From Naegleria gruberi (Eukaryota), in the NCBI GenBank assembly GCA_000004985.1, contig GG738927.1: DNA of 64,000 nucleotides; one strand, 5' to 3'. Below are positions 30,009 to 64,000 of the stretch, one piece after another. How positions within the stretch are numbered: the first letter of the stretch is position 1; every line of letters begins with the position of its first letter. A model generated the notes under the pieces. That model was not told where the DNA came from. It did not search any database and saw only the letters and a list, made by a program, of their open reading frames with translations. The position numbers and the translations under genes were made by a program.

Positions 30009-32363
30009 ATGAAAACAAGACAAATAACGCCGAGCCCTCTAACGATTTCATCATCTTCAAATCGTCCCGAAAAACATTCGAATAATAACATTAAAACTTG
30101 CTGCTTTGGAAGAAACTTTAGTTTACGAGTGAAAACTACTTTCGTATTAATTATAATGTTTCTCGGATTGATGGCACTTTGTCTGGGGATTTTACTAGCT
30201 GCCTTTTTCGTGGTTTTTCAAAATGTGGAATATCAACAAGCTAAAGAAGCAAGTAAACGAGTTTCTCGAGCATTATTGGACGATTTGAATTATTTACAGT
30301 CAAAAGTATTCGAATTTGGAGCATTTGATGATACAGTTTCCGTCTATGAAAATCTCACTCAGGAAAATATTGGAAATTACACTGAAATGTATTGGCACTG
30401 TGTTTATTTAAATAGTGTGAATGTGAATATGGCTTTTCTTTATTCGAAAGATGGAACTTTAATTACAAAAGTTCATTGCTTTAAGGGGCAAATGATAGAA
30501 CAAGTTCCTGATGAGTTTTCAAGTTTGGAAAAGAATTCGTATGGAAATTTCTTTTTACAAGATATTGAAAATGTTTGGAGTAGGAAATCTGGAATTTTAA
30601 TTCCAAAAAAGACAATTTTTGAGATGGCAACTTCTGATGAATCGAGGAATTTCCTTTCGAGTTATGAATCGAATGTGACGAATATTGTGTTGGTAGCTGC
30701 AATGCCAGTGCAGAGTACAAATTATGATTATTCGAGAGGTTTAGTCTTGTTTGCCAAGTATCAATTGGATGAACATGCTTTGGATATGGCTGAAAGAACT
30801 CAACTTTGCATGACCATGATGAATTTGAAAAACGAAACTGACCTCTATTCATTCAAGGAATCGATTGGATCGTTGGATACGAATGCATTTTCGAGTGGAA
30901 CTGATTGGAAAGTAACAAATATTACAACCTCATCCTATTTAACTGATTGGATTGATAACGAATCGTCGTTGGTTCAGTTTTTGGACTCGAGTGAAGAAAA
31001 TTCAGTGAAATTGAATAATCGTCAATGTTGGAAAGATAATATGAATGATGAAAGTTCTGTTTCCTTCAATGCTGGATCTCCTACCGATAGAATGGCTTCC
31101 TATCAAGCATTCTACACACTAGATGGAGAAAAGTCACTCATTATTCGATCCGATATTCCAAGAAAGACATTTCAAATAGGAATGGCATCATTTCTAGTTG
31201 TTTGGTCAGTCATGACTTTTATGATTGTTGTCATGTCAATTGCCATTGTCTGTTTTGTGGAAATGATAGTTCTGAGAAGAGTCATCTCACTATCAAGTAC
31301 TGTACAACGTGTGCACGACACTGTTAATTATGCAATTAGAGCTCCAAAACTAGGAAATGATGAACTAGGTCAATTATCCAAAGATCTTAACACCATGCTC
31401 GGAGAGATTGAACATGTGCAAAATCAACTCGAAAAGGACAATACAGTGATGCAGGATTTATTGGAGAAGACTGCTCTCGAAGAGGCCAAGAGTAGATGCG
31501 TCATGAATAGTATTGACGATTTCATTGTAACTGTTGACTGCTCAAATGGCATGCTTCTCAATATCAACCTCTCATTTGAGAGTAGAATCTTGAGAAAACA
31601 GAGAGCTTCCGTAAATTTTGAAGCACTCCCCTTCAATCAAGCTGTCTTTGCCTATTTTAAGGAAATTCCATCATTGGAATTGCTTTTACAAAAATTGGAA
31701 AATCTTGCCACGACTGGATCACATTGGGAAACTACCATTCTATCAGGATTTGGATTGAATATTCCAGTACATGTCACTGCTAAAAGAATTAAGGTAATTA
31801 TGGGTAAATTCACACGAGTGGATGCATACATGATTGTTGCCAGAAATTTGAGCGATCAAAACGAAATGAAACAAACCATCAAGAACAAACAAGATAAACT
31901 CGATGAAATGAAACAACATTCTGACTTTGACAGATACATGACAGATCCAATACTAAGACAACAATTTAAGGAATTTTGCACTAAGGAACGAGCTGAGGAA
32001 AATGTCATCTTTTTGGAACAAGTAATGGAATATAAGAAATTATCAAGAACTCACGAAAGAGCCAAGAAACAAAAGGAAATTATTGAAATGTTTCTTTCTG
32101 AAAATTCAGCAACACCAATCAATATTTCAAAACAAGTTTTTACAACAGAAGTGAAGAAAATTTTGGAAGGTTTTGGCCAATTACAACTTTTTGATAATTT
32201 AGAAACAATTATTAAGAGTATGCTCATTTTGGATAAGTTTAAGAGATTTATTTCACAATTTGAAACAAGTCAAATGACGACCATTGATACGGACAACATG
32301 TCTAGCTCAGGATCAATCGCATCAGATGCCAGTTATCAACACACTTTTACATCAACTGATTAA
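30009..32363 (+). CDS. Receptor-like membrane protein with TM1, an extracellular sensor domain of about 330 aa, TM2, a HAMP domain, and a C-terminal RGS (regulator of G-protein signalling) domain
   Basis: Hydrophobic segments TFVLIIMFLGLMALCLGILLAAFFVVF and IGMASFLVVWSVMTFMIVVMSIAIVCFV. HAMP: LRRVISLSSTVQRVHDTVNYAIRAPKLGNDELGQLSKDLNTMLGEI (DExGxL...FNxM pattern). RGS: ILRQQFKEFCTKERAEENVIFLEQVMEYKKL...KEIIEMFLSENSATPINIS. ATG start. Confidence 0.65.
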   Translation: MKTRQITPSPLTISSSSNRPEKHSNNNIKTCCFGRNFSLRVKTTFVLIIMFLGLMALCLGILLAAFFVVFQNVEYQQAKEASKRVSRALLDDLNYLQSKVFEFGAFDDTVSVYENLTQENIGNYTEMYWHCVYLNSVNVNMAFLYSKDGTLITKVHCFKGQMIEQVPDEFSSLEKNSYGNFFLQDIENVWSRKSGILIPKKTIFEMATSDESRNFLSSYESNVTNIVLVAAMPVQSTNYDYSRGLVLFAKYQLDEHALDMAERTQLCMTMMNLKNETDLYSFKESIGSLDTNAFSSGTDWKVTNITTSSYLTDWIDNESSLVQFLDSSEENSVKLNNRQCWKDNMNDESSVSFNAGSPTDRMASYQAFYTLDGEKSLIIRSDIPRKTFQIGMASFLVVWSVMTFMIVVMSIAIVCFVEMIVLRRVISLSSTVQRVHDTVNYAIRAPKLGNDELGQLSKDLNTMLGEIEHVQNQLEKDNTVMQDLLEKTALEEAKSRCVMNSIDDFIVTVDCSNGMLLNINLSFESRILRKQRASVNFEALPFNQAVFAYFKEIPSLELLLQKLENLATTGSHWETTILSGFGLNIPVHVTAKRIKVIMGKFTRVDAYMIVARNLSDQNEMKQTIKNKQDKLDEMKQHSDFDRYMTDPILRQQFKEFCTKERAEENVIFLEQVMEYKKLSRTHERAKKQKEIIEMFLSENSATPINISKQVFTTEVKKILEGFGQLQLFDNLETIIKSMLILDKFKRFISQFETSQMTTIDTDNMSSSGSIASDASYQHTFTSTD

Positions 32364-34086: not shown

Positions 34087-37000
34087 ATGTATTCAAACAA
34101 CAACAAGTGTCATTGTGGTTTAATTGCCAAGCAAGGAACGACCTCGAAGGGAGAAAATCAGGGTAGAAAGTACACCTCCTGTTCTAAAAGTATGACTGAT
34201 AAGAGTCGATGCAAATTCTTCAAGTGGTTAGATTCATCAGAACAAACAGCAACAACCAACATATCATCTTCTTCATCATCCTTCAAAAGCAATAGCAAAT
34301 TACAGCACAGTGAGCAGGCTTTTGATGATACTTTGAACAAGACGATACAATTGATGAATAGAGTGCTTCCTTCTTCCTTGTTATCATCAACAAGTGGTTC
34401 TTCTTCTTCATCATCAAATAACAAGTCTCCTTCCAACAACACTAATAGCCAGTGCTCATCTCTCACACTCTCACAATTGTGCTCCAGTATGGAAGACTTG
34501 AATATTGACAAAGATCTTTCAAAGCCTTCTTCTTCTCAAGCTATTGATAGAGACTTCATATTGAATGATAGTCTTTTTCCTTCTTCTTCTTCAGAAGCAA
34601 GCAAGAATAGTCTTCCTCTGATTGGAAACAATCAGCATAAAGGAGGAACATCATCTTCATCGTTACCAAATTCTCTCCTTGAAGAATGTATGCAAAAGGA
34701 ATTAAATAGCAAACAATTGGAGGCTGTCTGTGCTAGCGAACATGATTGTGTATGTGTTTATAGTGGACCGGGATCTGGTAAGACAAAGGTAAGTTGTTGT
34801 TATTATTGGATGGTAGAGGGAATTAATAATTAATTATTTGATGAATATTCATCTTGTGATGATGTGATGAATTTTTTTTTAATTTTTATTTAATTTTTTT
34901 AAAAAATTCATAACGGTCATGGATCCAAATTTTAGACCATCACCAACAGGATTGCCTACTTGTGTATTGTTAAAGGAATTGAACCAAGGAATGTATTTGC
35001 CATGACTTTTACTAACAAGGCTGCTCAGGAGATGAAAACAAGACTTGTTCACCTTGTGAAATTGTACGATTTTCAAAAGAGAATTAATGCAAAGGATTTC
35101 AGTCATATTGGAACGTTTCATGCAGTTTGTGCTAATATTTTGAGAAATGAGATGCATCATTTGACTCGTATTGTTGGATTGGATCAGAAATTTATGATAT
35201 TTGATTCGGAAGAGCAGCTGTCATAATTAGGAGCTTGTACAAGTCATCAACTAATCATTCCATTAGAAGNNNNNNNNNNNNNNNNNNNNNNNNNNNNNNN
35301 NNNNNNNNNNNNNNNNNNNCTTTTAAAAAATTCGTAACGGTCATTGTAAACTTTGGGTGGATCCAAATTTTAGACCATCACCTACAGGATTGCCTACTTG
35401 TGTATTGTTAAAGGAATTGAACCAAGGAATGTATTTGCCATGACTTTTACTAACAAGGCTGCTCAGGAGATGAAAACAAGACTTGTTCACCTTGTGAAAT
35501 TGTACGATTTTCAAATTAATGCAAAGGATTTCAAGACTTGTTCACCTTGTGAAATTGTACGATTTTCAAATTAATGCAAAGGATTTCAGTCATATTGGAA
35601 CGTTTCATGCAGTTTGTGCTAATATTTTGAGAAATGAGATGCATCATTTGACTCGTCTTGTTGGATTGGATCAGAAATTTATGATATTTGATTCGGAAGA
35701 GCAGCTGTCAATAATTAGGAGCTTGTACAAGTCATCAACTAATCATTTCATTAGAAGTTTACTTCCATTGAGTTTGTCTTTGGAGGATATGGAGAAGAAA
35801 CTCTCTCCAACTCTAGTTTTACAAACGATATCACGATGTAAGAATCAACAGGTTTCAGCTGATGAATATTCGAAAGCATTCCATCAAGAAATTGAGGAAA
35901 CGGTCATTGCTGAACTATTTGTAGAATATCAACAGTATTTATCGAAACACAATGGGGTGGATTTTGATGATTTATTGCTTCATGTTGTGTACTTGTTTGA
36001 AAAATTCCCTCTAGTGAGAGAAAAGTATGCCAATCAATGTGAAGTATTATTGGTCGATGAATTTCAAGATATCAACAAGTTACAATACAAGATTGCCATG
36101 CATTTGAACTCAAAGAGGAAGAACATCTTCTTGGTTGGTGATTCCGATCAAAACATTTACACTTTCAGATTCAGTGATAGCTCAATAATGCGGGAAGTTA
36201 TCAAAAAGTATGAGAAGGAGGGAAAGAGCATGAAAGTCATCATGATGAATGAAAACTATCGATCCACAAGAAGTATTGTCCAATTTTCAGACAAAATAAT
36301 AGCTAGCAATTCTAACAGATTAAGAACTATCAGCTCTACCACTTCAAACACCACGGGTTTACCAGTTTCGATAGTCAGTTGCTCTGATGAAGCCGAGTTC
36401 ATTACAAATGAAATTGTAAAACTCACAAACATGAATAACAACATTCAATATTGCGACTTTGCAATCCTTATCAGAGTCAACTCTGCTTCTCGAGTATTCG
36501 AAGACATTTTTGATAGGAAAAAGTTGCCTTACAGAATTTTGAATTCCACAAGATTTTACGACTCTATGGAAGTGAAAGATATTCTTTCCTATGCAAAAGC
36601 TATTGCAAATCCAGATAATGATCACTTCCTGTTGAGCTGTGTGAATGTTCCAAGAAGATGCATCACTGAGGAGACAAAGTCCAAGTTGATAAAGCTTGCA
36701 GCTCAGAATAAGATGTCTCTGAGGTCAATTATCAAGAATCATAACAAGGAAATTGCTGGACATCTAGGAGCCAATGAGTTACAAACACTCATTTCCACAA
36801 TAGATTTTATCGAAAAGTCTCAAATTAATCTTCATTCTCCTTCAACTATTATGCAAGATATTATTCGGGTGATTGATTATGAATCCTACTTGAAATTCAC
36901 ACAGAAGAATATGTTCGAAACAAGATGGGAGAATTTGAAAGAGTTAATTAACATGTGTCAAGAATTTGAGTCCAAATCAACCATTCCCTCAATTTCATCA

Positions 37001-38257
37001 TTTTTACAAAGCATTTCAATTTCCACAGAGATGGAACCAATTTCAAAAGATTCATCAAATTCCATTACAATTTCCACAATCCATGCAGCCAAAGGTTTAG
37101 AATTTGGAATTGTATTTGTGGCAGGAGTTGAGAAGGGAAATATTCCATACTACAAAGCTCAGGAAAAGAATGAAATAGAGGAAGAGAGAAGATTACTGTT
37201 CGTTGCCTGTACAAGGGCTCAGTCCTTACTCTGTTTAACCAATTCCAAAACAAGATTCAGACTTGGAAAGAGTTACAACACTCAGAGTTCTGAGTTTTTG
37301 AGCATAATTCTCTCTAATCAATTCACATTCTATTCTAATTCATCATTAGCGACTCTATTGAGTGATAATTCCATATCTCAATTAAGATATGAGACTATTA
37401 ATCATTTAGTAGCTTGCAGAGACAAGAAATCTAAACAAAATCTTTCTTCCTCCTCGGATATTCTGACAAAAGATCTGAAACGAGTTAAAAATATGGAAAG
37501 TTTCGAACCTACAACCGAATCAAGCAACGTTCCAGAATATTGGTTCAATAAGGAACGATTCAAGATTGTGGACGTAACAGATACTATGAAATTAACCATT
37601 CAAGACTTGATGGATAATTCATGTGAAAAGAAAACTCTTGGAAGTGGAAAGGATCAAACGTATTTCAAGAAACAATACACTCAATTGGAAGTTATCAAAG
37701 TGGAACGAGTTGAAAATCCAAATCTCTACGGATTATATCAAGCCAAACAATCTCAAATGAAATCTTTCAAGGATAATCCCCAACCCATCCCAGTCAAAAC
37801 TGTGGAAAAAGTTCCACCCAACTCAACAGCCAAAACCTGGATTCAAAGTGTAAAATTATGCCAACAAGTTAATGAAAAATTCTTTTGGCACGGCACTGAT
37901 TCACAAGTTGTGAGCATTATTTGTGAACATGGTTTAGATGCAAGAGTGAGCTCACTTTCTGGACTATTCGGTGCAGGAATTTATTTTGCAGAATATTGTT
38001 CCAAGAGTGATCAATACTGCTCGCCAACGAATGATCTTTTTCACATGTTTCTCTGTCGAGTCATGATTGGTAATCAAATTGAAACTCTTGAAAAGGGAAA
38101 ATCTCTCAATAATATTCGAAGACCAAGTGTCATTCCAAACACCAATGGACGAACATTTGATAGTATTCTAGGAAAACCAAACATGTACAAGGAATTTGTA
38201 GTTTACGATAGTTGCCAATGCTATCCAGAATTTCTAATTACTTATAAAAGGAAATAA
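34087..38257 (+). CDS. Fusion protein: N-terminal GRF-type zinc finger, UvrD/PcrA-like SF1 helicase, and a C-terminal PARP (ADP-ribosyltransferase, H-Y-E) catalytic domain. Two exons: 34087..34788 and 35374..38257
   Basis: GRF: [26 protein letters not shown]...CKFFKWL. Helicase motifs: GPGSGKT (I), [16 protein letters not shown] (Ia), [11 protein letters not shown] (II), NYRSTRSIV (IV), [16 protein letters not shown] (V), FVACTRAQ (VI). Exon junction: GKTK + TITYRIAYL...TFTNKAA aligns to UvrD GKTRVLTHRIAWL...TFTNKAA. PARP: [11 protein letters not shown]...[17 protein letters not shown]...MYKEFVVYD...YPEFLITY, compared with PARP1 LLWHGS...GKGIYFADMVSKSANYC...YNEYIVYD. The intron 34789..35373 (GTAAGT...TTTAG) contains a 50-N gap and a duplicated exon-2 copy. 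Confidence 0.75.
34880..35760. repeat. Near-identical duplicated segment (about 390 bp × 2) on either side of a 50-N gap. Probable haplotype/assembly duplication of helicase exon 2
   Basis: 34880-35269 and 35320-35760 match except for a few substitutions and a 1-nt indel. A local 45-bp tandem duplication lies at 35500-35590. Confidence 0.7.
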
Positions 38258-49245: not shown

Positions 49246-52200
49246 TTATTTGTTTTGTTTCACTAAACTATCGAAATCAATTGTCTTCTTCAATTTCTTT
49301 GAAGCGTTTTCAACTATTCTATTATTCTTATTCATTCGTTTGAGGAATTCAGTATTGTATCTCAATGAATAATGTGCAAAACGAAGTGATTCAATATTGA
49401 TATCCATTGCTTGAGCAATAAAATCTTCATCACTAATAATTTCGTAAGAGGCTACCTCAAGAGCTGTAACATCGTGCTGTATAGCTCTCAGAACAATATC
49501 TCTATCATTTCTCATTTCAAACAATGCATAACAGAGGGCAGAATAACTTGTTTCATGACTAACCGCGTGCATTACAATTTCCTTATCGTTTAGGAATTCA
49601 GGTACTGCAAATTGAAGTGTGTCTTGATGGTTTTGGGCACATTTTAGAACAACATTTCTGTTATGTATAAACTTAAGAGGTACATATTGCAAAACCTTTC
49701 CATTGACAGAAGCACACTCCAAAACAAATTCTTCATCGTTTTGCAGTTCTTCACTGGCATAAAGGAATGCAACAGCATCGCTTTTGATGGCTTTTAGCAT
49801 AATTTCTCTATTATTTTTAAATTCATTCTTTAACTCTGCAGACAAGTGCATAATTGAATCACCACTTAGCTCTAGTGATCTCAAAGCTATTTCTCTGTCT
49901 TCTCTTAACCTAATTGGTACGTTAAGTATATCGTAAGTTTTTGGTTCAATCTCCAAAATAAAGTTCCTATCCATTTTCAGTCTATTGGAAACATACAAAA
50001 GATTATTCATATTTACATTTACAGCCATAAGGGCAAACTGTCTATCATTTTTAAAAGAATAGTCTAAATCATTTAGTGATCTAAGTCTTAATGCAATCAT
50101 TGCTGCTTCCTTATTAAGATTCACTGGTTTCTTTAAAAATTCTGCAGGCAACCATTTTCTCAATGCTTCTAATACTTCTTCATCATTTTTCATTTCTTCA
50201 GAGATATGTTGATAACACTCTGCTGATATTTTTAAAGCTGTAAGGATGACTTCCTTATCGTTCTTCAATTCTTCAGATGCATACTGTAAGGTACTTGCAT
50301 CTTGACTGACAGCATTTAAAATAAGCTCTCTATCATTTGCAAGTGATTCTGGAACGTAATGAATTACATAACCATAAATCTTTGCCATCTTTCTCATAAA
50401 ATCTACATTACTCTTTAATCGATCTGAAACACATTCAAAAAAATAATGTCCGTACCCTGTCTCTGTATAAGATATTGCTGCTTCAACTATTTCCTCATCA
50501 TCTCTATATTGTTCTGGAACATTCTTTAGATTATTTCGATCGTATCTACATGATTCATAAACAATCTCTCTATCTAATTCTATTTCATTGTAATCACTCA
50601 ATCTGAACCCATTTCTTAGTGCAATTATTAATAATTCTCTATCATTTAGGAGAGAGCGACTTGCATATTTAAATTCACTTCCATAAAGTTGAATAGCTGT
50701 TAAAACTATTTCTCTATCTTGTTTGAATTCCTGTGGCAAAGTTTCGATGCTTCCTGTTCTTTTAGCATGTTCCAATATTAAATCTCTATCTTCTTTCAAA
50801 TTATATCCAAAGTATTGAGAAATAGTATTAAATGAATTTCTAATTGCTCTTAAAACAAATTCTCTGTCTCTTCTCACAGATTCAGGAGCATATTCTAAGA
50901 AGGTACTGTCTTTAATTATTGTACACTCTAATATTTCTGTATCCATTCTCAATTCCTTAGACGCAAAGGTAAAATTTGTTGAGTCAAATAAAATTGCCTC
51001 TAATACCAGTTCTCTGTCGTTCTTCAGCTCATCAGAAGCATATTCTAGAGCCCCATAATGTTGCTTTACAGCTAATCTGATCAATTCTCTATCATTTCTA
51101 AACTCTTCATTTAAATTCTCTAAAACTTTACGCTCGGATAGTATACAGTCTAAAATTAATTGTCTATCAGTTTTTAACTCGTCGTGAGATATATTTTCGA
51201 AACACGCTGGATCAATGTTGACGATTCTTTTTTGTCGTGATGCATTAAGTGCTTTGAAATCCTCTTTGGAATACCACATGGCATTGCTGTATTTACATTG
51301 AATATCCAATAACTCGTCAATAAAATCATTATCATTGGCTAGAGATGAATTAACGTAATCAAGAAAAGTGAAAAAATTATTTGCTCCAGAAATACAGTTC
51401 AAAATGAATTCTCTATCTTCTTTCAGATCTGTCAGTGAGGAGAGCGAGTGAGCATCTTTCGAAACAGCAAGAGTCGCTATTTCCCTATCCTTCCAGAAAA
51501 TAGGATCTGCATATTGTAAAGCCCTTCCAGATTTAACAGCATCATAAACTATTTCTCTATCCTTTTTAAATTGTGGTGAAACATCTCTCAAACTATCTCC
51601 TTTCTTCTTTACAATTTCCAAAACAAAATCTCTATCTGATCGCAAGCTTTCGGCTGCGTATAAGAAATAAAAACCTGGAGAGTTAGCAGCACTCAATACT
51701 ATTTCCTTATCAGCAGTAAATTCTTTTGGTGCAAATCTAAGAGTACACGTATATCTAGAACTTTTGGTGGATAATAGAACTATTTCTCGATCTTTTAAAT
51801 TGTCTGGAACATATTCTAGAACTGAACCGTCTTTCTTGATTGCTTTCAAAATAACATCTCTATTATTTTTCAAATTGGCTGAAACATATTGTAAACATTT
51901 TGGTTGTTGTTCAACAGCCAACCTCGCAATTTCGTCATCATCGTGAAAATGTGGTAAATGTTCGAACAGAGTTGAATCCACAAACATTTTTGGTTTACAT
52001 TTTAGTGCCTTCAACACAAAATTCTTGTCAGTCTTCAACCTTTGACTTGCAAATTCAATTGCAGAAACGTTCTCTTTGATAGCTGCCAGTACAACCAGTT
52101 CATCATTCTTCAAATCATCCGATGCATGTTCCAAAACACGACCATCAGCACGAACAATTTTAAGAAGTGCTAATTTACAATCATTGTCTGGTAACGGATT

Positions 52201-52413
52201 TTCTTCAATGTACTCCACAGCAGATTGATTTTTTCTCTTAAAGAATGCTGTTAAATGATCATAAACCTTTTTGTTTTTCGCAATTCTTTCCTCGTAAACT
52301 GATGCAAAGTGTTGAGAAAGCAATCGGTCCGATGATGATCCGCCATAAATTTCGGGATGGTCATCTTGATGATGAAAATTTATAAAAAGATCGCCAAAGA
52401 CAACTTTCGACAT
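49246..52413 (-). CDS. Giant protein (1055 aa) made of tandem DUF4116-like repeats
   Basis: Roughly 30 reiterations of an approximately 36-aa unit (L-K-x-D-R-E/D-I/F-V-L-x-A-h-x...L-x-Y-A-S-x-E-L) in a single exon. ATG at 52413 after an A-run. Confidence 0.6.
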   Translation of the reverse strand: MSKVVFGDLFINFHHQDDHPEIYGGSSSDRLLSQHFASVYEERIAKNKKVYDHLTAFFKRKNQSAVEYIEENPLPDNDCKLALLKIVRADGRVLEHASDDLKNDELVVLAAIKENVSAIEFASQRLKTDKNFVLKALKCKPKMFVDSTLFEHLPHFHDDDEIARLAVEQQPKCLQYVSANLKNNRDVILKAIKKDGSVLEYVPDNLKDREIVLLSTKSSRYTCTLRFAPKEFTADKEIVLSAANSPGFYFLYAAESLRSDRDFVLEIVKKKGDSLRDVSPQFKKDREIVYDAVKSGRALQYADPIFWKDREIATLAVSKDAHSLSSLTDLKEDREFILNCISGANNFFTFLDYVNSSLANDNDFIDELLDIQCKYSNAMWYSKEDFKALNASRQKRIVNIDPACFENISHDELKTDRQLILDCILSERKVLENLNEEFRNDRELIRLAVKQHYGALEYASDELKNDRELVLEAILFDSTNFTFASKELRMDTEILECTIIKDSTFLEYAPESVRRDREFVLRAIRNSFNTISQYFGYNLKEDRDLILEHAKRTGSIETLPQEFKQDREIVLTAIQLYGSEFKYASRSLLNDRELLIIALRNGFRLSDYNEIELDREIVYESCRYDRNNLKNVPEQYRDDEEIVEAAISYTETGYGHYFFECVSDRLKSNVDFMRKMAKIYGYVIHYVPESLANDRELILNAVSQDASTLQYASEELKNDKEVILTALKISAECYQHISEEMKNDEEVLEALRKWLPAEFLKKPVNLNKEAAMIALRLRSLNDLDYSFKNDRQFALMAVNVNMNNLLYVSNRLKMDRNFILEIEPKTYDILNVPIRLREDREIALRSLELSGDSIMHLSAELKNEFKNNREIMLKAIKSDAVAFLYASEELQNDEEFVLECASVNGKVLQYVPLKFIHNRNVVLKCAQNHQDTLQFAVPEFLNDKEIVMHAVSHETSYSALCYALFEMRNDRDIVLRAIQHDVTALEVASYEIISDEDFIAQAMDINIESLRFAHYSLRYNTEFLKRMNKNNRIVENASKKLKKTIDFDSLVKQNK

Positions 52414-55136: not shown

Positions 55137-55862
55137 ATGTCCACAACAACAACTACTCTAGGAACAATATCCACTATCAATTCGAATATAACCTTGATGC
55201 AAACATGTATTCGAATGGATCCGTCTGGTTTCACATATGTGCCTTGGATTTGGGACATCTTTGGTGAGTGTGTTCACGATATTCGTGAGCAATCTTCCTT
55301 CGCTATTGGTATGATTTCGTTAGGTTTCTGGATTATGGCCCTGCTGCCACAAGTCATTGCCAATTTCAAGAACAGAGATGCCAGCTCGCTGTCAACTGGT
55401 TATCTCATCCAAATTACATTAGGAGATGCAGCAAGTATGACTGCAGGTATCATGAGTGGTCAATTAATTACTCAGATTTTGTTGAGTGCCTATTTTGTGT
55501 TGATGGATGTAGTCATGATTGTTCAATATATAATTTTCGTGATAATTCCAAAGATTTATAGGAAAATTGTAAAGAAAGAGGAACGTGGGGATGATTTGAA
55601 AGGCAAGGAAATGAAGGAAGTTGTGAATAATGAGAAAGTGGTAAAGAAGGAAGAAAATACAAAGCATGAGATTGTGAAGAGCTCAGTGATGATTTCGTTA
55701 TTGTCTGTTTTGGTGATGGTTGCATTCTTTGCTTCAATTGTTGGCTTTTCACGAGCTAGTTCAGAAAGTTATGCGACTACACTTTCGAATAATAGAATTT
55801 CTAGGAAACTTTTACATGCTGTTCCAGAGGGAAAGGAATATCCACAGAAGAAGCTATCACAA
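55137..55862 (+). CDS. PQ-loop repeat (cystinosin/PQLC2-like) membrane transporter, 3'-partial (runs into a 1267-N gap)
   Basis: PQ-loop motif FWIMALLPQVIANFKNRDASSLSTGY; multiple TM helices. ATG at 55137. Confidence 0.5.
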
Positions 55863-57129
55863 NNNNNNNNNNNNNNNNNNNNNNNNNNNNNNNNNNNNNN
55901 NNNNNNNNNNNNNNNNNNNNNNNNNNNNNNNNNNNNNNNNNNNNNNNNNNNNNNNNNNNNNNNNNNNNNNNNNNNNNNNNNNNNNNNNNNNNNNNNNNNN
56001 NNNNNNNNNNNNNNNNNNNNNNNNNNNNNNNNNNNNNNNNNNNNNNNNNNNNNNNNNNNNNNNNNNNNNNNNNNNNNNNNNNNNNNNNNNNNNNNNNNNN
56101 NNNNNNNNNNNNNNNNNNNNNNNNNNNNNNNNNNNNNNNNNNNNNNNNNNNNNNNNNNNNNNNNNNNNNNNNNNNNNNNNNNNNNNNNNNNNNNNNNNNN
56201 NNNNNNNNNNNNNNNNNNNNNNNNNNNNNNNNNNNNNNNNNNNNNNNNNNNNNNNNNNNNNNNNNNNNNNNNNNNNNNNNNNNNNNNNNNNNNNNNNNNN
56301 NNNNNNNNNNNNNNNNNNNNNNNNNNNNNNNNNNNNNNNNNNNNNNNNNNNNNNNNNNNNNNNNNNNNNNNNNNNNNNNNNNNNNNNNNNNNNNNNNNNN
56401 NNNNNNNNNNNNNNNNNNNNNNNNNNNNNNNNNNNNNNNNNNNNNNNNNNNNNNNNNNNNNNNNNNNNNNNNNNNNNNNNNNNNNNNNNNNNNNNNNNNN
56501 NNNNNNNNNNNNNNNNNNNNNNNNNNNNNNNNNNNNNNNNNNNNNNNNNNNNNNNNNNNNNNNNNNNNNNNNNNNNNNNNNNNNNNNNNNNNNNNNNNNN
56601 NNNNNNNNNNNNNNNNNNNNNNNNNNNNNNNNNNNNNNNNNNNNNNNNNNNNNNNNNNNNNNNNNNNNNNNNNNNNNNNNNNNNNNNNNNNNNNNNNNNN
56701 NNNNNNNNNNNNNNNNNNNNNNNNNNNNNNNNNNNNNNNNNNNNNNNNNNNNNNNNNNNNNNNNNNNNNNNNNNNNNNNNNNNNNNNNNNNNNNNNNNNN
56801 NNNNNNNNNNNNNNNNNNNNNNNNNNNNNNNNNNNNNNNNNNNNNNNNNNNNNNNNNNNNNNNNNNNNNNNNNNNNNNNNNNNNNNNNNNNNNNNNNNNN
56901 NNNNNNNNNNNNNNNNNNNNNNNNNNNNNNNNNNNNNNNNNNNNNNNNNNNNNNNNNNNNNNNNNNNNNNNNNNNNNNNNNNNNNNNNNNNNNNNNNNNN
57001 NNNNNNNNNNNNNNNNNNNNNNNNNNNNNNNNNNNNNNNNNNNNNNNNNNNNNNNNNNNNNNNNNNNNNNNNNNNNNNNNNNNNNNNNNNNNNNNNNNNN
57101 NNNNNNNNNNNNNNNNNNNNNNNNNNNNN
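55863..57129. other. Assembly gap (1267 N)
   Basis: Run of N. Confidence 1.
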
Positions 57130-57335
57130 ATATCATGCTCCTGTAAAAAGATTGTAACCATATTTCTGGAAAACTTATTGAGCGAGCTCATGACTAGTAA
57201 TTGCTTTGTTTGGAGGAATGACATGATATGACTCCAATTATCTTCATTCAACAAACGAAAGTGGAATAATGGTATAGATTTGTAAGGGTTGATCAATTTG
57301 GCTTTGGTTATATCTAAATCCCTCTCTTTGAACAT
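57130..57335 (-). CDS. N-terminal fragment of an F-box-like protein continuing into the N-gap
   Basis: MFKERDLDI...LNEDNWSHIMSFLQTKQLLVMSSLNKFSRNM resembles an F-box. The ORF runs into N's. Confidence 0.3.
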
Positions 57336-57344
57336 TCCTAATCT

Positions 57345-57766
57345 ACCATATAGACAGTTGTAGGTAGATAAAATTTTGTCCCCAAAAAATTTTTGGCCAA
57401 GTCGAAACTCCAGCCATTTTTCAACGCGATTTTAAAAAATGTTACAAGTCGAGAATAAACCGTTACATTAGTTGGCGCCATAAAAGAAGACGTTACACTT
57501 TCATCAAAATAAACTTTAATTTCATCAAACAAAAAAACCAAACTACTTCAACAATGAAGTACCTCTCTTCACTTTTTGGTTGCTTTCCAACACAGGATTT
57601 CACTATTGGTGCAACAACAACAACATCTTGAGAAATAACATTGTCCTCCAACAATTTTCTTCATGTCCCGTTTTTGTTGTCCCCAAGCCAAGCCTTTTAG
57701 ACTTGTAAAAAAATATTGGTCAGAGCAACAAATGTCCATTACCTACAACTGTCTATACCATACGTT
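57345..57766. mobile_element. Candidate MITE-like element. 18-bp perfect terminal inverted repeats (tatagacagttgtaggta / tacctacaactgtctata) flank an internal segment of about 370 bp
   Basis: Plus 57349-57366 tatagacagttgtaggta. Plus 57741-57758 is the exact reverse complement. Lies between the TPR and F-box genes. Confidence 0.3.
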
Positions 57767-58734
57767 GATGCTCTCATTATTAAATTTTGATATCTCTGTT
57801 CAGTAACTGGCATTAATGATATCGATTTTGAAAAGTCTTGAATAGCTCCTTTCCAATCACCTAGATAATATTTACCAAGTCCTCTATTGTAATACGATGA
57901 TGCAACTAATTCTGAATTATTTTCTTCTCCCAAAGTGATGGCCTTATTTAAATAAATGATAGAATCAGAATAGAATGTTTCAAGGTAATAAGAAAGACCT
58001 GCTCTTATGTACAATTCTTCAAGTGTAACAAAACTTGATCGTTTCGACTCAATATTTGAACTACCATTCCAATTAAAGTACTTAGCAAGTCTTTTCCTCA
58101 TTCCCTTCTCCTCCATAGATTTCTTTTCTTCCATTTGCACAAGAAAGAAAGGCTCCTCCAGCTTGATCAACTTCTTTTCCAAATCTTCCTTTCCCACTTT
58201 CAACACTTGTTCCACCTCTTCACGATGCTTGATTGCATTCCTAAAGTGTTGAACTGCCTCACTAAACTCTCCCAATCCATCACAACAAAGACCCATCAAA
58301 TATTCAGACAAATAACTGTATGAGCTAGGACATGATACTTCTTCACTTGTTCCACTAATTGGTTCAAAATTTAATATCTTAATAACATGTATCAAATCTT
58401 GTTTTGCAAACTTCCACTCTTTTGTTTGTAATCTTGCAATACATCTCTGAGTCAATAATTTTCTCAATTCGTTCCTTTCCGATGAATTTAAAATATGAAA
58501 ATTTTCTATCAATTCTTGAATTTCCGAATAATTGTCTTGCAATTCGTGTGTTTGCTCTTTCGTATAATTCTTTCTATTAATCAATTCATAAATTCGTAAA
58601 TTATTAGCCCGAATCGCTTCATCCCAAGATCGTAAATTATCCCCTACAAAATCATAGACAATTTCAAAGGGAAGGAGCAGGGTAGGTTGGTAGCACATTT
58701 TTTTTAATTGTAAAATTGTTTCAAAGTTCACCAA
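57739..58734 (-). CDS. TPR-repeat protein
   Basis: 331 aa. TPR-like helices, for example SYYNRGLGKYYLGDWKGAIQDFSKSISL and AVQHFRNAIKHRE. Confidence 0.5.
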   Translation of the reverse strand: MVNFETILQLKKMCYQPTLLLPFEIVYDFVGDNLRSWDEAIRANNLRIYELINRKNYTKEQTHELQDNYSEIQELIENFHILNSSERNELRKLLTQRCIARLQTKEWKFAKQDLIHVIKILNFEPISGTSEEVSCPSSYSYLSEYLMGLCCDGLGEFSEAVQHFRNAIKHREEVEQVLKVGKEDLEKKLIKLEEPFFLVQMEEKKSMEEKGMRKRLAKYFNWNGSSNIESKRSSFVTLEELYIRAGLSYYLETFYSDSIIYLNKAITLGEENNSELVASSYYNRGLGKYYLGDWKGAIQDFSKSISLMPVTEQRYQNLIMRASTYGIDSCR

Positions 58735-59072
58735 ATCAAAATATACCTTTACTCATCATTGGAATTTGATACATCTAGCAGTGGTGATGATTTTAGTGAA
58801 ATATTGAATTTGAAATTGTTGTCCTTCCTCTTTACAATCAGTCAACCTATCAAAATTTTTCTTCATTATGGAAATTAATAATCTGCTCAAGAGTTTGCAG
58901 AAAAGATCTGATTAAGCAAGAAAACACGTGTTTTTCATTACAACCATCTTTCCAACCAACCAAGAACGATCAAATTCAATAAATTGAAATTCAAATAGAA
59001 ATCATTGAAACTTTAAAAACCTCAAACAAAAAAAAATGCAACAACACAATACTAACAATCACTCCGGAAAAC

Positions 59073-60138
59073 TTGGAAACGAATCATACAATTGATGAAT
59101 ATATTCCTCATCAGAGTGTCTCCTCGGAACCTCTTTGGTTGAGAGAATTACAAACCTTGGAACCTGTAAAAATTCAAATTGAACATTTTGTTGATGTTCA
59201 TCATTTGCGAATTGTTGTTATTTCGGATACTCATGGATTTCATCGTTACTTGAAATTTCCTCCTTGTCCCGAGGGGAAGAAGATGATTTTAATTCATTGT
59301 GGTGATATGACAGAGCATGGAACTATGGATGAGTTGAGGAAATTTAATGAATGGTTGGGACACATTCGAGTTAATTTCTCTCAGATTTTTGTATTGCTGT
59401 AGGTTAAATTAATTATTAGGTATTTATTCTAATAATATATTATTGATCCGATTTATTTTAAATAATTTATTGATCGGAATAATAGGAATCATGAAACTGA
59501 ATTTTCAAAATTTACTAAGCAAGGTTTGTTTGAAATCTATTGNNNNNNNNNNNNNNNNNNNNNNNNNNNNNNNNNNNNNNNNNNNNNNNNNNNNNNNNNN
59601 NNNNNNNNNNNNNNNNNNNNNNNNNNNNNNNNNNNNNNNNNNNNNNNNNNNNNNNNNNNNNNNNNNNNNNNNNNNNNNNNNNNNNNNNNNNNNNNNNNNN
59701 NNNNNNNNNNNNNNNNNNNNNNNNNNNNNNNNNNNNNNNNNNNNNNNNNNNNNNNNNNNNNNNNNNNNNNNNNNNNNNNNNNNNNNNNNNNNNNNNNNNN
59801 NNNNNNNNNNNNNNNNNNNNNNNNNNNNNNNNNNNNNNNNNNNNNNNNNNNNNNNNNNNNNNNNNNNNNNNNNNNNNNNNNNNNNNNNNNNNNNNNNNNN
59901 NNNNNNNNNNNNNNNNNNNNAATTATTGGATTTACACAAGCTCAAAATTCATCTCTTTGGACACATTCACTCAAAAAATGGTTATGAATTTTTGAGAAGA
60001 TCATACGTGTTGGAAGCTGCTAAAAAAGAAAAAGATGATAGCACGAAACAGTTGAAAACTGAACAAAGTAATGATGATATTCTATTTATTAATGCAGCAA
60101 ATTCACACAAATTCCAGCCATTCTACTTTGATTTGTAA
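59073..60138 (+). CDS. Calcineurin-like metallophosphoesterase (MPP superfamily); split by an intron and a 378-N gap
   Basis: Motifs VISDTHG (GDxHG), IHCGDMTEHG (GDxxDRG-like) and, after the gap, HLFGHIH (GH/GHxH). The exon boundary near 59391 is unresolved. Confidence 0.5.
59543..59920. other. Assembly gap (378 N)
   Basis: Run of N. Confidence 1.
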
Positions 60139-62211
60139 TGTATCGATTCTAACTCAATACTAACTTGATGGAAATCAACAACTAAAAAATGGCAAGTTGA
60201 ATTATTTTGAAAATTCGAAAGGTTCTCTTGTAAAGGTTGCTTATTTTTGTGTAGAGCTCAGAATCCTTTTACCAGAATTCAAATTTTTAAAATTTAAGGA
60301 ATTTAATGTGGTGAAAGAGAATTTCAAAGTAGAGTTATTTAGAATAGAACCATTCCACTATTACAAGATTCATTTTTCTAATCGAATTCCAGCCAATTAC
60401 TGACCTACTATTAAGCACATTAAAATCTCAATTTGATCATTCTTTATTACAATTATCAGAGATATCAAAGTAATAAACATCTTAATTTTAATGTGCAATT
60501 ATCATCGCAAATATGGTGTAGGTGATGTGAAATTTAATGCCTGATCAGTATCTTCGCAGATCTTCCACTTTCCCTCAATATACATTGTTGTTTTGTTGGC
60601 AGTAGTAAGGTGCAAAATCAATTCTTTGTCCTCAATTTGACATCCTCAATTTCCTTGCAGACTGTAACTCCAATAATTTCCTTCACCAATTCCTCTTCCT
60701 CCTCTCCAATTGCAATCAATTTGTGGGTTGTTGAAACCCAATTGGGTTTCAGAAAGTTTTTGAATTGTTGTTTTCTTTGGTTTCTAACAATATTAGTGTG
60801 AAGTTCAATTAGAAAACTTTTTGCCATATTTGGGATCTGGACTTTTATTGTCTGAAAACAGGCTAGATGTGTTCTATATTCAATAATCTATATGAAAAAA
60901 AGAAGAAATAAAATTAACTAACCAATCCAAGAATTATATACAAGAATGATTGCAGAATCCTCTTTTTCAAATATTATTATAACTTGTACTGAAATACCTT
61001 CTCTTAATATTGATAGACGTGGAACTGATAATTTTATAACTGTTTATGGTTTTGGTCCAAAACATGTCAGTAGTGGTACTGTTATTGCAAGAGATATTTC
61101 TAAAGGTTATGAAATTTTTAATGCAAATAGAATTTATGATTTATTGTAAATACAAAATGAAGAAAATCAATAAAACTATTAAATAAATATTTTGTGAAAT
61201 TGTTATGGCTGATGAAACACTTCTAGTACTTCCCAATCTATTAATTGAATTGCTTACGGGAGGAAAAAAAAAACTACTTTCATCGAGATTAACTTTTCTG
61301 GGGTTGGGGTTGGGTATGGCGAAAACCTAATCACATAAAACGAACGGCTAATATTGGCTATCCAGTTCTTATATATGTATTATTAAATACATTAATATAT
61401 CTATTCTGTAATACACGTGAAAAAACTCCCCGTAGTTATTGAGATAATCAAAAATGGTCAACTCAAAAATGCCTAGTATATCTATTATCTCTGCGACGAG
61501 AACGTTCCGGGTTATGATTTACTCAAATATCAATCTATATGAGTTTTGGAAGAAATGATAGAAAATACTAATTTTTTTAATTCGCCGTTCCCGAGATAAT
61601 TGAGTCCTAAAGTGACCCCATGGGTTGAACCTACCTTGGGTCTGACAAAGTTGAAAATTGCCAAGTTGGGCCAGAATGAAACTTTTGATATATTGTAGAT
61701 ATATAGATGAATAGATGATGATATGAATTAATCTTGTTGAATCAGTGTATTTAATAAATTACAACTTGTCTAAAAACTAACTTTTCAACATTTATTGTAC
61801 TACTATATGAATGTTATTTTAATCATCACCAATCTCATATATATGATGTATAATGATGACATCTACCTTTTAGAAGTGTTGGAAGTATAATATATAATAT
61901 CCTTAGTATACTGTACTCATTCTACCTTAATTGACCAAGATATTGAGCCATACTATGGAAATACTATAACATTCAATCAAACTCATTATTATAGTAGAAA
62001 ATATCAATTATAATCATATATAATTGAAATAATCATTATTGGATCCACATACAGACTGTAGGAAGTCAACTTGTGTGAAAATGATAATATCGGTTATTGA
62101 AGGATGAATATCTTACATGACTTAATTCCACTCATGTATACATGTCTAATTATCATGTTTTATGATATATAATTGAAATAATTGAAATCTATCATATATA
62201 TAGGGAGATAA

Positions 62212-62643
62212 CCAATTAGGATGAAAGTAGCGGAAGTTACGCTCACTTTTTACCAGGTAAACACTTTCAATAGGGACCTATATATTTTATTTGATAATAT
62301 CGTATATCTATGCATTTTATCGATAAATAATTGGTTTCATGATTTTATATTCTATATTTCCAATTTGGGAAATGTTGCAATGTCTAATCTCAATTGAAAT
62401 ATTGTCATAATACCAGTTATTGATTATATATCATGAAACTGATATTATAGACTCTATTTGATGTATATATGAATATATGAGTGAAATATTACAATTTTGA
62501 TATTTCTTAATGACATGGGTAGTTCACTAAGGTAGTGACTTTGCCCTATGATAACTATCTAAGATGATATTGAAATCATTCTAAAATTGATTCTATGGCA
62601 GTATTTGATGATTATTACACGATAATATTGAATTGGTATTGAT
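62212..62643. repeat. Repeat unit of about 430 bp, copy 1 (AT-rich; starts accaattaggatgaaagtag...)
   Basis: About 93% identical to 62854..63289 by direct reading. Confidence 0.8.
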
Positions 62644-62803
62644 TCTTGCTTGGGTTTGGGTTTGGGTTTGGGTTTGGGTTTGGGTTTGGGGTTGGGTTTG
62701 GGTTCGGGTTTGGGTTTGGGTTTGGGTTTGGGTTTGGGTTTGGGTTTGGGTTTGGGTTTGGGTTTGGGTTTGGGTTTGGGTTTGGGTTGGGTTTGGGTTG
62801 GGT
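62644..62803. repeat. (GGGTTT)n hexamer array of at least 26 units, running into a 50-N gap
   Basis: Perfect GGGTTT repeats with a few GGGGTT/GGTTC variants. G-rich strand 5'→3' on the + strand. Confidence 0.9.
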
Positions 62804-62853
62804 NNNNNNNNNNNNNNNNNNNNNNNNNNNNNNNNNNNNNNNNNNNNNNNNNN
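62804..62853. other. Scaffold gap (50 N) directly after the (GGGTTT)n array
   Basis: Run of exactly 50 N. Confidence 1.
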
Positions 62854-63289
62854 ACCAATTAGGATGAAAGTAGGGGAAATTACGCTCACAATTTACCAGA
62901 TAAACATTTTCAATAGGGACCTATATATTTTATTTGATAATATCGTATATCTATGTATTTTATCGACATATAATTGGTTTCATGATTTTATTTTCTATAT
63001 TTCCCATTTGGGAAATGTTGCAATGTCTAATCTCAATTGAAATATGGCCATGATATCAATTATTGATTATATATCATGAAACTGATATTATAGACTCTAA
63101 TTGATGTTAATATGAATATATGATTGAAATATTTGATTTTTGACATTTCTTAATGACAAGGATAGTTCACTAAGGTAGTAACTTTGCCATATGATAACTA
63201 TCTAAGATAATATTGAAATCATTCTAAAATTGATTCGATGAGAGTATTTGATGATTATAACATGATATTATTGAATTGGTATTGATTCT
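62854..63289. repeat. Repeat unit of about 430 bp, copy 2
   Basis: Begins accaattaggatgaaagtagg immediately after the gap. Diverges from copy 1 at ...attgattctt|accatttatgac. Confidence 0.8.
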
Positions 63290-64000
63290 TACCATTTATG
63301 ACATGTAGGAATGTTACCTTTGATCAATTGGACCAGTAACTTGACAGATATCCCATTTATATAGATATTGATTTATATCACTCAGAAACGTTACCAATAT
63401 CATTTGTAAGAGTAGTGGTATGATATTCTATCTTTTTGCACATCTTGATATTGACTTGTCATATTGTCATGACTAGTTACCAACATGGCTAAATGACATG
63501 AATACTGAATGATGTCCAAATGATACGAAATTGATAGAAACCTCATTATATGATGTTAATAACATATTGTATCAATTTGGTAAAGAATCTCATTATCCTT
63601 AGGGTACTTCCCTATTGAGGTACCTTAATTGACTATCTCAATATTTACAATGAGATATGATATTTATTTCAATTGTATCATGTTATATATGTTATATGAA
63701 GCAGTTTGATACTAGTTTTGATATATAAATATGATTAATTAGATATTATATATAGCAACTCTTAGTTTTACAATGTTGACTTTGAAATTCCCTAATTGTC
63801 CATATATATATGACCAATTGATGAAACTAATATCAATCGGCTAGATTTTCAATTATGAACACAATGGTATCAATAGTTATATGATTCATGATTGTTTAAA
63901 ATTGACTTGGTCAACTAAGGATAGGTCATTAAGGGTTGAATGAATTGATATGAAATTCAATACCAATTATTGATATACCATGATTAATTGATCTATATAT

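What the first reader, a model, noticed from the sequence alone, without database searches (positions are those of the whole stretch)
61200..64000. Gene-free repeat block: duplicated 430-bp unit flanking a (GGGTTT)n array (at least 26 units) and a 50-N gap. Candidate telomere/subtelomere junction or interstitial telomere-like array
The + strand carries at least 160 bp of perfect GGGTTT hexamers (62644-62803), with the G-rich strand running 5'→3' to the right as expected for a chromosome end. The array is cut by a standard 50-N scaffold gap, and the same 430-bp AT-rich unit that precedes the array resumes after the gap. A short GGGGTTGGGGTTGGG motif also occurs at about 61303. This could be a telomere-bearing contig end joined by the scaffolder to another contig that starts with the same subtelomeric unit. 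Alternatively it is a genuine interstitial telomere-like satellite.
Basis: seen in the sequence. Interest (0 to 1): 0.6.

Follow-up and report, generated by a model that had tools for sequence, protein, structure and literature searches.

The report
Naegleria telomere at an unmerged contig join
This is a chromosome-end (TTTGGG)n telomere tract of the amoeba Naegleria gruberi lying at the end of an assembly contig, and the "duplicated unit" around it is most likely two unmerged versions of one subtelomeric locus, so it is an ordinary feature, apart from a hint that one version was cut short and re-capped.

Summary
The window is Naegleria gruberi NEG-M: one ORF is 100% identical to NAEGRDRAFT_75691, which sits on a 174,313-bp scaffold. 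A (GGGTTT)n tract of about 26 units and 94% regularity, not perfect, runs from 62648/62650 to 62803. It ends at a 50-N gap. TTTGGG was already proposed in 2013 as the N. gruberi telomere repeat, from this same genome assembly.

The "430-bp unit" is 437 bp (62211-62647 vs 62854-63290), 92.0% identical with no indels. It is not a discrete repeat. Its left limit is the first base of the post-gap contig. Its right limit is the point where telomere repeats replace sequence that continues in the other copy.

The window's other 50-N gap (35270-35319) is flanked in the same way by an unmerged overlap. The two sized gaps (1267 and 378 N) are not. So 50 N appears to mark contigs that overlap but were not merged.

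Best reading: contig A is a real telomere-capped end. Contig B is the other haplotype, or a paralogous chromosome end, of the same subtelomere. A real interstitial array is not excluded. Novelty is low and interest is low.

The parts
61150..62647 (+). Gene-free, AT-rich subtelomeric stretch of contig A, between the last small ORF (60946-61149) and the telomere tract
   Evidence: No ORF over 79 codons. No Rfam or tRNA hit. GC is 25-33% against 34% in the genic part. BLAST finds no other copy in the window except 62211-62647.
61300..61314 (+). Short interstitial telomere-like motif GGGGTTGGGGTTGGG (TTGGGG variant), in the same orientation as the main tract
   Evidence: Exact match, where matches with up to 2 mismatches are expected 0.01 times per window from shuffles. 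It is the only other telomere-like motif in 64 kb. Reading it as a relic of an older chromosome end is inference.
62211..62647 (+). Copy 1 of the 437-bp shared segment (contig A), ending at the telomere junction ...GATTCTTGC|TTGGGTTT
   Evidence: 92.0% identical to 62854-63290, with no indels.
62648..62803 (+). (TTTGGG)n telomere tract, about 26 units, G-rich strand 5'->3' towards the contig end, cut off by the end of contig A (so this is a minimum length)
   Evidence: TTTGGG is the published candidate telomere repeat of N. gruberi (PMC3622300).
62804..62853 (.). 50-N scaffold gap of minimum size, here marking two contigs that overlap but were not merged
62854..63290 (+). Copy 2 of the shared segment, starting at the first base of contig B and reading on past the point where copy 1 carries the telomere (...GATTCTTAC|CATTTATGAC)
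63291..64000 (+). Continuation found only in contig B: AT-rich and gene-free, absent from contig A, where telomere repeats take its place
   Evidence: It has no similarity to anything else in the window.

Best explanation
Contig A (up to 62803) ends in a genuine Naegleria gruberi telomere. Telomerase-type TTTGGG repeats, with the G-rich strand running 5'->3' outwards, cap a chromosome end about 2.5 kb beyond the last recognisable gene and 1.5 kb beyond the last small ORF.

Contig B (from 62854) is a second version of the same subtelomeric sequence. It is either the other haplotype of this heterozygous diploid or a paralogous chromosome end. It does not carry the telomere at that point and reads on. 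The assembler could not merge the two versions, so the scaffolder placed them head to tail with its minimum 50-N gap. The apparent "duplicated unit flanking a telomere array" is therefore a representation artefact and not a tandem duplication.

Relative to version B, version A is truncated at 62647/62648, and repeats are joined directly to non-telomeric sequence. This is the signature of a terminal break healed by new telomere addition.

What is shown: the sequence anatomy, the organism, and the behaviour of the gaps. What is inferred: that the tract is physically terminal, whether B is a haplotype or a paralogue, and the healing mechanism.
For: Organism. ORF 57739-58734(-) is 100% identical to N. 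gruberi NAEGRDRAFT_75691 (EFC36694.1), which lies on a 174,313-bp scaffold.

Motif. TTTGGG was reported as the candidate N. gruberi telomere repeat from an in-silico survey of genome assemblies that weighed position and orientation (PMC3622300).

Array. It is strongly non-random, is the only long one in 64 kb, and has the G-strand pointing outwards.

Shared segment. It is colinear with no indels. Its left edge is the first base of contig B. Its right edge is exactly the start of the repeats in copy 1, while copy 2 continues.

Gap behaviour. Both 50-N gaps in the window have overlapping flanks: 34897-35269 matches 35321-35757, and 62211-62647 matches 62854-63290. The 1267-N and 378-N gaps have none. 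Sized gaps therefore exist in this assembly, and this gap was given the minimum size, as expected for contigs that overlap.

Contig B edge. It carries no telomere repeats at its left edge, so there is no sign of a telomere-to-unit junction.

Heterozygosity. Naegleria is described as a heterozygous diploid (PMC9928731).
Against: - Nothing in the window reads across the gap, so terminal position is not proven.
- The tract is internal to the scaffold as deposited.
- The 8% substitution divergence between the copies is roughly four to five times that in the other unmerged overlap (one search shows about 1-2% substitutions plus indels). That is high for alleles and may mean contig B belongs to another chromosome end, which would make this a mis-join and not a haplotype pair.
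- The telomere status of TTTGGG in N. gruberi rests on an in-silico survey whose authors say experiments are still needed.
- I could not inspect other scaffold ends, because no other N. gruberi DNA was reachable.
Confidence: 0.75

Rival explanations
1. A genuine interstitial telomere array. In this reading the genome really has the order unit - (TTTGGG)n - unit, like the internal TG1-3 tracts between tandem Y' elements in budding yeast. It would have arisen when a healed end later acquired more distal sequence by recombination or telomere capture.
For: The two copies are in direct orientation, and the tract has the orientation expected for such internal tracts. A short internal telomere-like relic lies 1.35 kb proximal, at 61300-61314, so internalised telomere sequence does occur at this end. 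The contig break inside the array is equally compatible with a long internal array.
Against: - Contig B has no telomere repeats at its left edge.
- Its homology to contig A starts at its first base, with no element boundary at the matching point in A.
- Copy 1 is truncated relative to copy 2, which does not fit tandem whole elements.
- The gap is the minimum 50 N, and the other 50-N gap is demonstrably an unmerged overlap.
Confidence: 0.12
2. A mis-scaffold between two different chromosome ends. Contig B would be a paralogous subtelomeric copy from another chromosome, pulled in by mate pairs that fall in shared subtelomeric sequence. This is a variant of the best explanation: the telomere is real in both, but the two contigs are not alleles.
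For: The 8% divergence is well above the roughly 1-2% substitutions seen in the window's other unmerged overlap. Contig B is at least 1,147 bp within the window and is not anchored to any gene.
Against: BLAST found no further copy of the segment in the 64 kb. There were no exact matches in metagenome contigs. A multi-copy subtelomeric family is therefore not demonstrated. Both rival placements predict the same anatomy, so the window cannot separate them.
Confidence: 0.3
3. A telomere-like microsatellite with no telomere function, either a chance GT-rich satellite or a cloning or assembly chimera.
For: Terminal position has not been shown experimentally. The published motif assignment is in silico only.
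Against: The motif matches the published candidate exactly. It lies at the edge of the gene-bearing region, with the correct strand polarity. It is the only such array in 64 kb, against 0.26 expected chance matches. The replacement of continuing sequence by repeats at a sharp junction is typical of real chromosome ends.
Confidence: 0.03

Closest known systems
Candidate TTTGGG telomere of Naegleria gruberi (Fulneckova et al. 2013, PMC3622300)
   Same: Same organism, same assembly and same hexamer, with the G-rich strand pointing towards a sequence end. This locus is one instance of what that survey counted.
   Different: Here the tract is at a contig end inside a scaffold, not at a scaffold end, and it is followed by an unmerged second copy of the subtelomere. 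That survey gives no locus-level description in the text I could read, and its supplement is not held.
Paramecium telomeres, TTGGG(T/G) (a mix of TTTGGG and TTGGGG; reviewed in PMC5855555)
   Same: The same two hexamer variants occur. TTTGGG dominates here, with one GGGGTT inside the tract and a TTGGGG-type relic at 61300-61314.
   Different: A different lineage. The window uses the standard genetic code, with intron-poor ORFs over 1000 codons long, so it is not a ciliate macronuclear chromosome. No programmed fragmentation is implied.
Interstitial telomere tracts at subtelomeric block boundaries (yeast X/Y' junctions, human subtelomeric duplicon boundaries; from general knowledge)
   Same: The short motif at 61300-61314 is an internal telomere-like relic oriented towards the end, 1.35 kb inside the terminal tract.
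   Different: Only 15 bp long. No evidence that it bounds a mobile or duplicated block, because nothing between 61316 and 62210 is repeated in the window.
Unmerged haplotype overlaps at minimum-size gaps in draft Sanger assemblies of heterozygous genomes (general assembly knowledge)
   Same: A minimum-size gap. The right contig starts inside sequence already present at the end of the left contig, in the same orientation. The pattern recurs at the other 50-N gap.
   Different: At this gap the two versions differ structurally (telomere against continuing sequence), not just by indels, and they are more diverged (8%).

Membership tests
Telomerase-type terminal telomere repeat array | Tandem array of a short T/G-rich unit | tested here: met
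   26 copies of a 6-bp unit with 94% matches. 23 matches against 0.26 expected by chance.
Telomerase-type terminal telomere repeat array | G-rich strand runs 5'->3' towards the end of the molecule | tested here: met
   GGGTTT is on the + strand and runs into the right-hand end of contig A, with genes to the left.
Telomerase-type terminal telomere repeat array | Physically terminal on the chromosome | tested here: inconclusive
   The tract is terminal on its contig but internal to the scaffold. The gap analysis favours a terminal position, but no read-level data are available.
Telomerase-type terminal telomere repeat array | Same repeat at the other chromosome ends of the same genome | not testable with these tools
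   No other N. gruberi DNA could be reached. The literature reports TTTGGG as the candidate motif from a genome-wide in-silico search.
Telomerase-type terminal telomere repeat array | Bal31 sensitivity, or telomerase activity that synthesises the motif | not testable with these tools
   Needs an experiment. The survey's authors state that experimental tests are still required.
Interstitial telomeric sequence | Telomere repeats flanked on both sides by non-telomeric DNA in continuous sequence | tested here: inconclusive
   Main tract: the right flank is a gap and contig B has no repeats at its edge. The short motif at 61300-61314 does meet this feature.
Multi-copy subtelomeric repeat family (Y'-like) | A discrete element with its own boundaries, present at several chromosome ends | tested here: not met
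   There are only two copies. The left boundary is a contig edge and the right boundary is the telomere junction. No further copy in the window or in metagenome contigs. Other chromosome ends could not be examined.
Unmerged-overlap assembly artefact at a minimum-size gap | Minimum-size gap, with the right contig beginning inside sequence already present near the end of the left contig, colinear and in the same orientation | tested here: met
   A 50-N gap. Homology starts at the first base of contig B (62854, matching 62211) and shows no indels.
Unmerged-overlap assembly artefact at a minimum-size gap | Same pattern at other minimum-size gaps of the assembly and absent at sized gaps | tested here: met
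   Gap 35270-35319 has flanks 34897-35269 matching 35321-35757. The 1267-N and 378-N gaps have no flank homology. The sample is only four gaps.

The most novel reading that the evidence does not exclude
One homologue of this N. gruberi NEG-M chromosome suffered a terminal break inside non-coding subtelomeric DNA at 62647/62648 and was healed by direct addition of TTTGGG repeats. The strain would then carry two structurally different ends, with everything distal to 63290 on the other homologue present in a single copy. The TTGGGG relic at 61300-61314 would mark an earlier round of the same process. This would be locus-level evidence for chromosome-end turnover in a heterolobosean.
Probability: 0.3. 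Interest if true: 0.35.

Novelty: already known. Interest (0 to 1): 0.15.

Why it matters
The value is mostly practical. The duplication around the gap should not be counted as a segmental duplication or as a repeat family. The scaffold may need to be split, or flagged as haplotype-mixed, at 62804-62853. The locus also gives a clean sequence-level example of the N. gruberi TTTGGG telomere junction, which so far is supported only in silico. It provides specific primers and probes (62211-62647 plus the repeat) for the missing experimental confirmation. If the two versions are alleles, it is a small and testable case of heterozygous terminal truncation with telomere healing in a free-living amoeba.

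Tried and rejected
- **Ciliate hypothesis.** My first guess from TTTGGG/TTGGGG was a Paramecium macronuclear end. I rejected it because standard-code ORFs reach 1070 codons and allowing TAA/TAG as sense codons adds little. The organism was then identified as N. gruberi.
- **Protein search with the UvrD-PARP ORF.** It was swamped by bacterial PcrA at 33-36% identity and did not identify the organism.
- **Fetching more of the scaffold.** Look-ups with a 1055-aa ORF and with the exact N. gruberi protein both returned "not on record". The rest of the scaffold and the other scaffold ends could not be inspected.
- **Metagenome scans.** Two exact-pattern scans, for a 25-mer of the shared unit and a 26-mer from 61616-61641, gave 0 hits.
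- **RNA genes.** Rfam on 57200-64000 at E<=1 and tRNA scanning gave nothing.
- **ORF inside the unit.** A protein-coding reading of the 58-codon ORF was rejected, with 8 non-synonymous against 3 synonymous codon differences between the copies.
- **Literature.** Papers that mention Naegleria together with telomeres gave nothing beyond the 2013 survey. The N. gruberi genome paper is not held and the survey's supplement is not held.

Full report
**What is in the sequence.** The region reads as the first-stage reader described, with small corrections. Tandem Repeats Finder reports a 6-bp array at 62650-62803 with 26.0 copies, 94% matches and 2% indels. Reading the sequence, the repeats begin at 62648 (…GATTCTTGC|TTGGGTTTGGG…). 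They include one GGGGTT (62688), one GGGTTC (62700) and two shortened GGGTT units in the last 20 bp. The tract is therefore about 155 bp and imperfect, not 160 bp and perfect. GGGTTTGGGTTT with at most 1 mismatch occurs 23 times against 0.26 expected. The tract runs straight into exactly 50 N at 62804-62853. The flanking repeat is 62211-62647 vs 62854-63290: 437 bp, 35 evenly spread substitutions (15 transitions, 20 transversions), no indels, 92.0% identity, direct orientation. GGGGTTGGGGTTGGG is exact at 61300-61314. Across the whole 64 kb, telomere-like motifs occur only at these two sites, both on the + strand.

**Is the block gene-free?** From 61150 to 64000 there is no stop-free stretch above 79 codons apart from artefacts of the repeat and the N run. 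No Rfam match was found in 57200-64000 and no tRNA in the window. GC is 25-33% there against 34% in the genic part. A 58-codon ORF inside the unit is kept open in both copies. However, it differs by 8 non-synonymous and 3 synonymous codons, which does not look like constrained coding sequence. The last recognisable gene is a calcineurin-like phosphoesterase at 59073-60138, interrupted by a 378-N gap. An unassigned 67-codon ORF ends at 61149.

**Which organism.** TTTGGG/TTGGGG first suggested Paramecium. The window, however, has standard-code ORFs up to 1070 codons and gains little if TAA/TAG are read as sense. The Pfam content pointed to a heterolobosean amoeba: a protein with 20 DUF4116 repeats, an F-box protein, CHASE4-HAMP-RGS, UvrD+PARP, ERCC1 and SAPS. 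The TPR ORF at 57739-58734(-) is 100% identical to Naegleria gruberi NAEGRDRAFT_75691 (EFC36694.1 / XP_002669438.1). That protein is recorded on a contig of 174,313 bp. The window is therefore part of the N. gruberi NEG-M draft assembly.

**What is known about the repeat.** Fulneckova et al. 2013 (PMC3622300) searched 143 genome assemblies for TnAmGo-type minisatellites and assessed them by position and orientation. They reported TTTGGG as the unexpected candidate telomere repeat of N. gruberi, and stressed that terminal position still needs experimental confirmation. I found no later paper that tests this. The motif is thus the published one for this organism. This locus is an instance of it, with the polarity expected of a chromosome end lying to the right.

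**What the "duplicated unit" is.** Neither limit of the shared segment is an element boundary.
- Its left limit is the very first base of the post-gap contig. In contig A the sequence simply continues leftwards into unique DNA.
- Its right limit is the exact point where copy 1 switches to telomere repeats, while copy 2 reads on (…GATTCTTAC|CATTTATGACATG…) for at least 710 bp.

The window has four gaps: 50, 1267, 378 and 50 N. Gap sizes are therefore estimated in this assembly, and 50 looks like the floor. I compared 1.5 kb on either side of each gap.
- The other 50-N gap (35270-35319) is also flanked by an overlap. 34897-35269 aligns to 35321-35757, right up to both gap edges. The two sides differ by a few substitutions and by indels of 14 bp, about 49 bp (one side has a perfect 55-bp tandem duplication) and 1 bp.
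- The two sized gaps show no flank homology.

So in this assembly a 50-N gap seems to mark two contigs that really overlap but were not merged because the underlying versions differ. Naegleria is described as a heterozygous diploid (PMC9928731). Applied to the gap at 62804, contig B overlaps contig A from 62211 onwards. The merge failed because A ends in telomere repeats where B continues. Contig B carries no telomere repeats at its left edge, so there is no trace of a telomere-to-unit junction.

**Best explanation (confidence about 0.75).**
- Contig A is a real chromosome end capped by (TTTGGG)n.
- Contig B is a second version of the same subtelomere that lacks the cap at that point.
- The tandem appearance is a product of scaffolding.
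- Relative to B, A is truncated, with repeats joined directly to non-telomeric sequence. This is what a terminal break healed by telomere addition looks like. That mechanism is inferred.
- The GGGGTT variant inside the tract and the TTGGGG-type relic at 61300-61314 resemble the TTGGGG/TTTGGG mixture of Paramecium, where it is attributed to telomerase stuttering (PMC5855555). Whether the same applies here is unknown.
- The relic, oriented like the terminal tract and 1.35 kb inside it, may mark an older end position. That too is inference.

**What remains open.** Whether B is the allele or a paralogue from another chromosome end cannot be decided. The 8% substitution divergence is several-fold higher than in the other unmerged overlap. 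That leans towards a paralogue or towards an unusually diverged subtelomere. A true interstitial array flanked by direct repeats, Y'-like, is not excluded, since nothing reads across the gap. I put it at about 0.12, for three reasons: the gap behaviour, the missing repeats at the edge of B, and the truncated state of copy 1. No further N. gruberi DNA was reachable, and two exact-pattern scans of metagenome contigs found nothing.

**Verdict.** The feature is a known kind of thing, the already-proposed N. gruberi telomere repeat, seen through a common draft-assembly artefact. Interest is low. The only mildly new angle is a possibly heterozygous, healed chromosome end, which existing read data could test.

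Noticed in passing
window 34897-35757 (gap 35270-35319): The other 50-N gap is an unmerged overlap of two versions of one locus. They differ by a few substitutions and by indels of 14 bp, about 49 bp and 1 bp. The right-hand version carries a perfect 55-bp x2 tandem duplication (35477-35588) inside the 5' part of a helicase gene. Since 55 is not a multiple of 3, that version would be frameshifted, which means either a disrupted allele or an assembly error.
   Followed up: partly
window 34087-38257 (+): This appears to be one gene spanning the gap. It combines a GRF zinc finger and the start of a UvrD helicase (34087-34833) with a UvrD/PcrA-like helicase and a C-terminal PARP catalytic domain (35519-38257). 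The best database hits to the helicase part are bacterial PcrA at only 33-36% identity, which suggests a bacterial-type helicase fused to eukaryotic domains.
   Followed up: partly
window 30009-32363 (+): A 784-aa ORF combines bacterial-type sensor modules (weak CHASE4 and HAMP matches, both below Pfam's cut-off) with a clear RGS domain. This is an unusual signalling architecture.
   Followed up: no
window 49246-52413 (-): A 1055-aa ORF made almost entirely of DUF4116 repeats: 20 matched stretches, E = 8e-187.
   Followed up: no
window 61300-61314 (+): A short internal TTGGGG-type telomere-like motif lies 1.35 kb inside the terminal tract and in the same orientation. It is possibly a relic of an earlier chromosome end.
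   Followed up: partly
window 55863-57129 and 59543-59920: Two sized N gaps (1267 and 378 N) interrupt genes near the chromosome end: a PQ-loop protein at 55137 onwards and a calcineurin-like phosphoesterase at 59073-60138. Four gaps fall in the last 29 kb of the window, so assembly quality drops towards this end.
   Followed up: no
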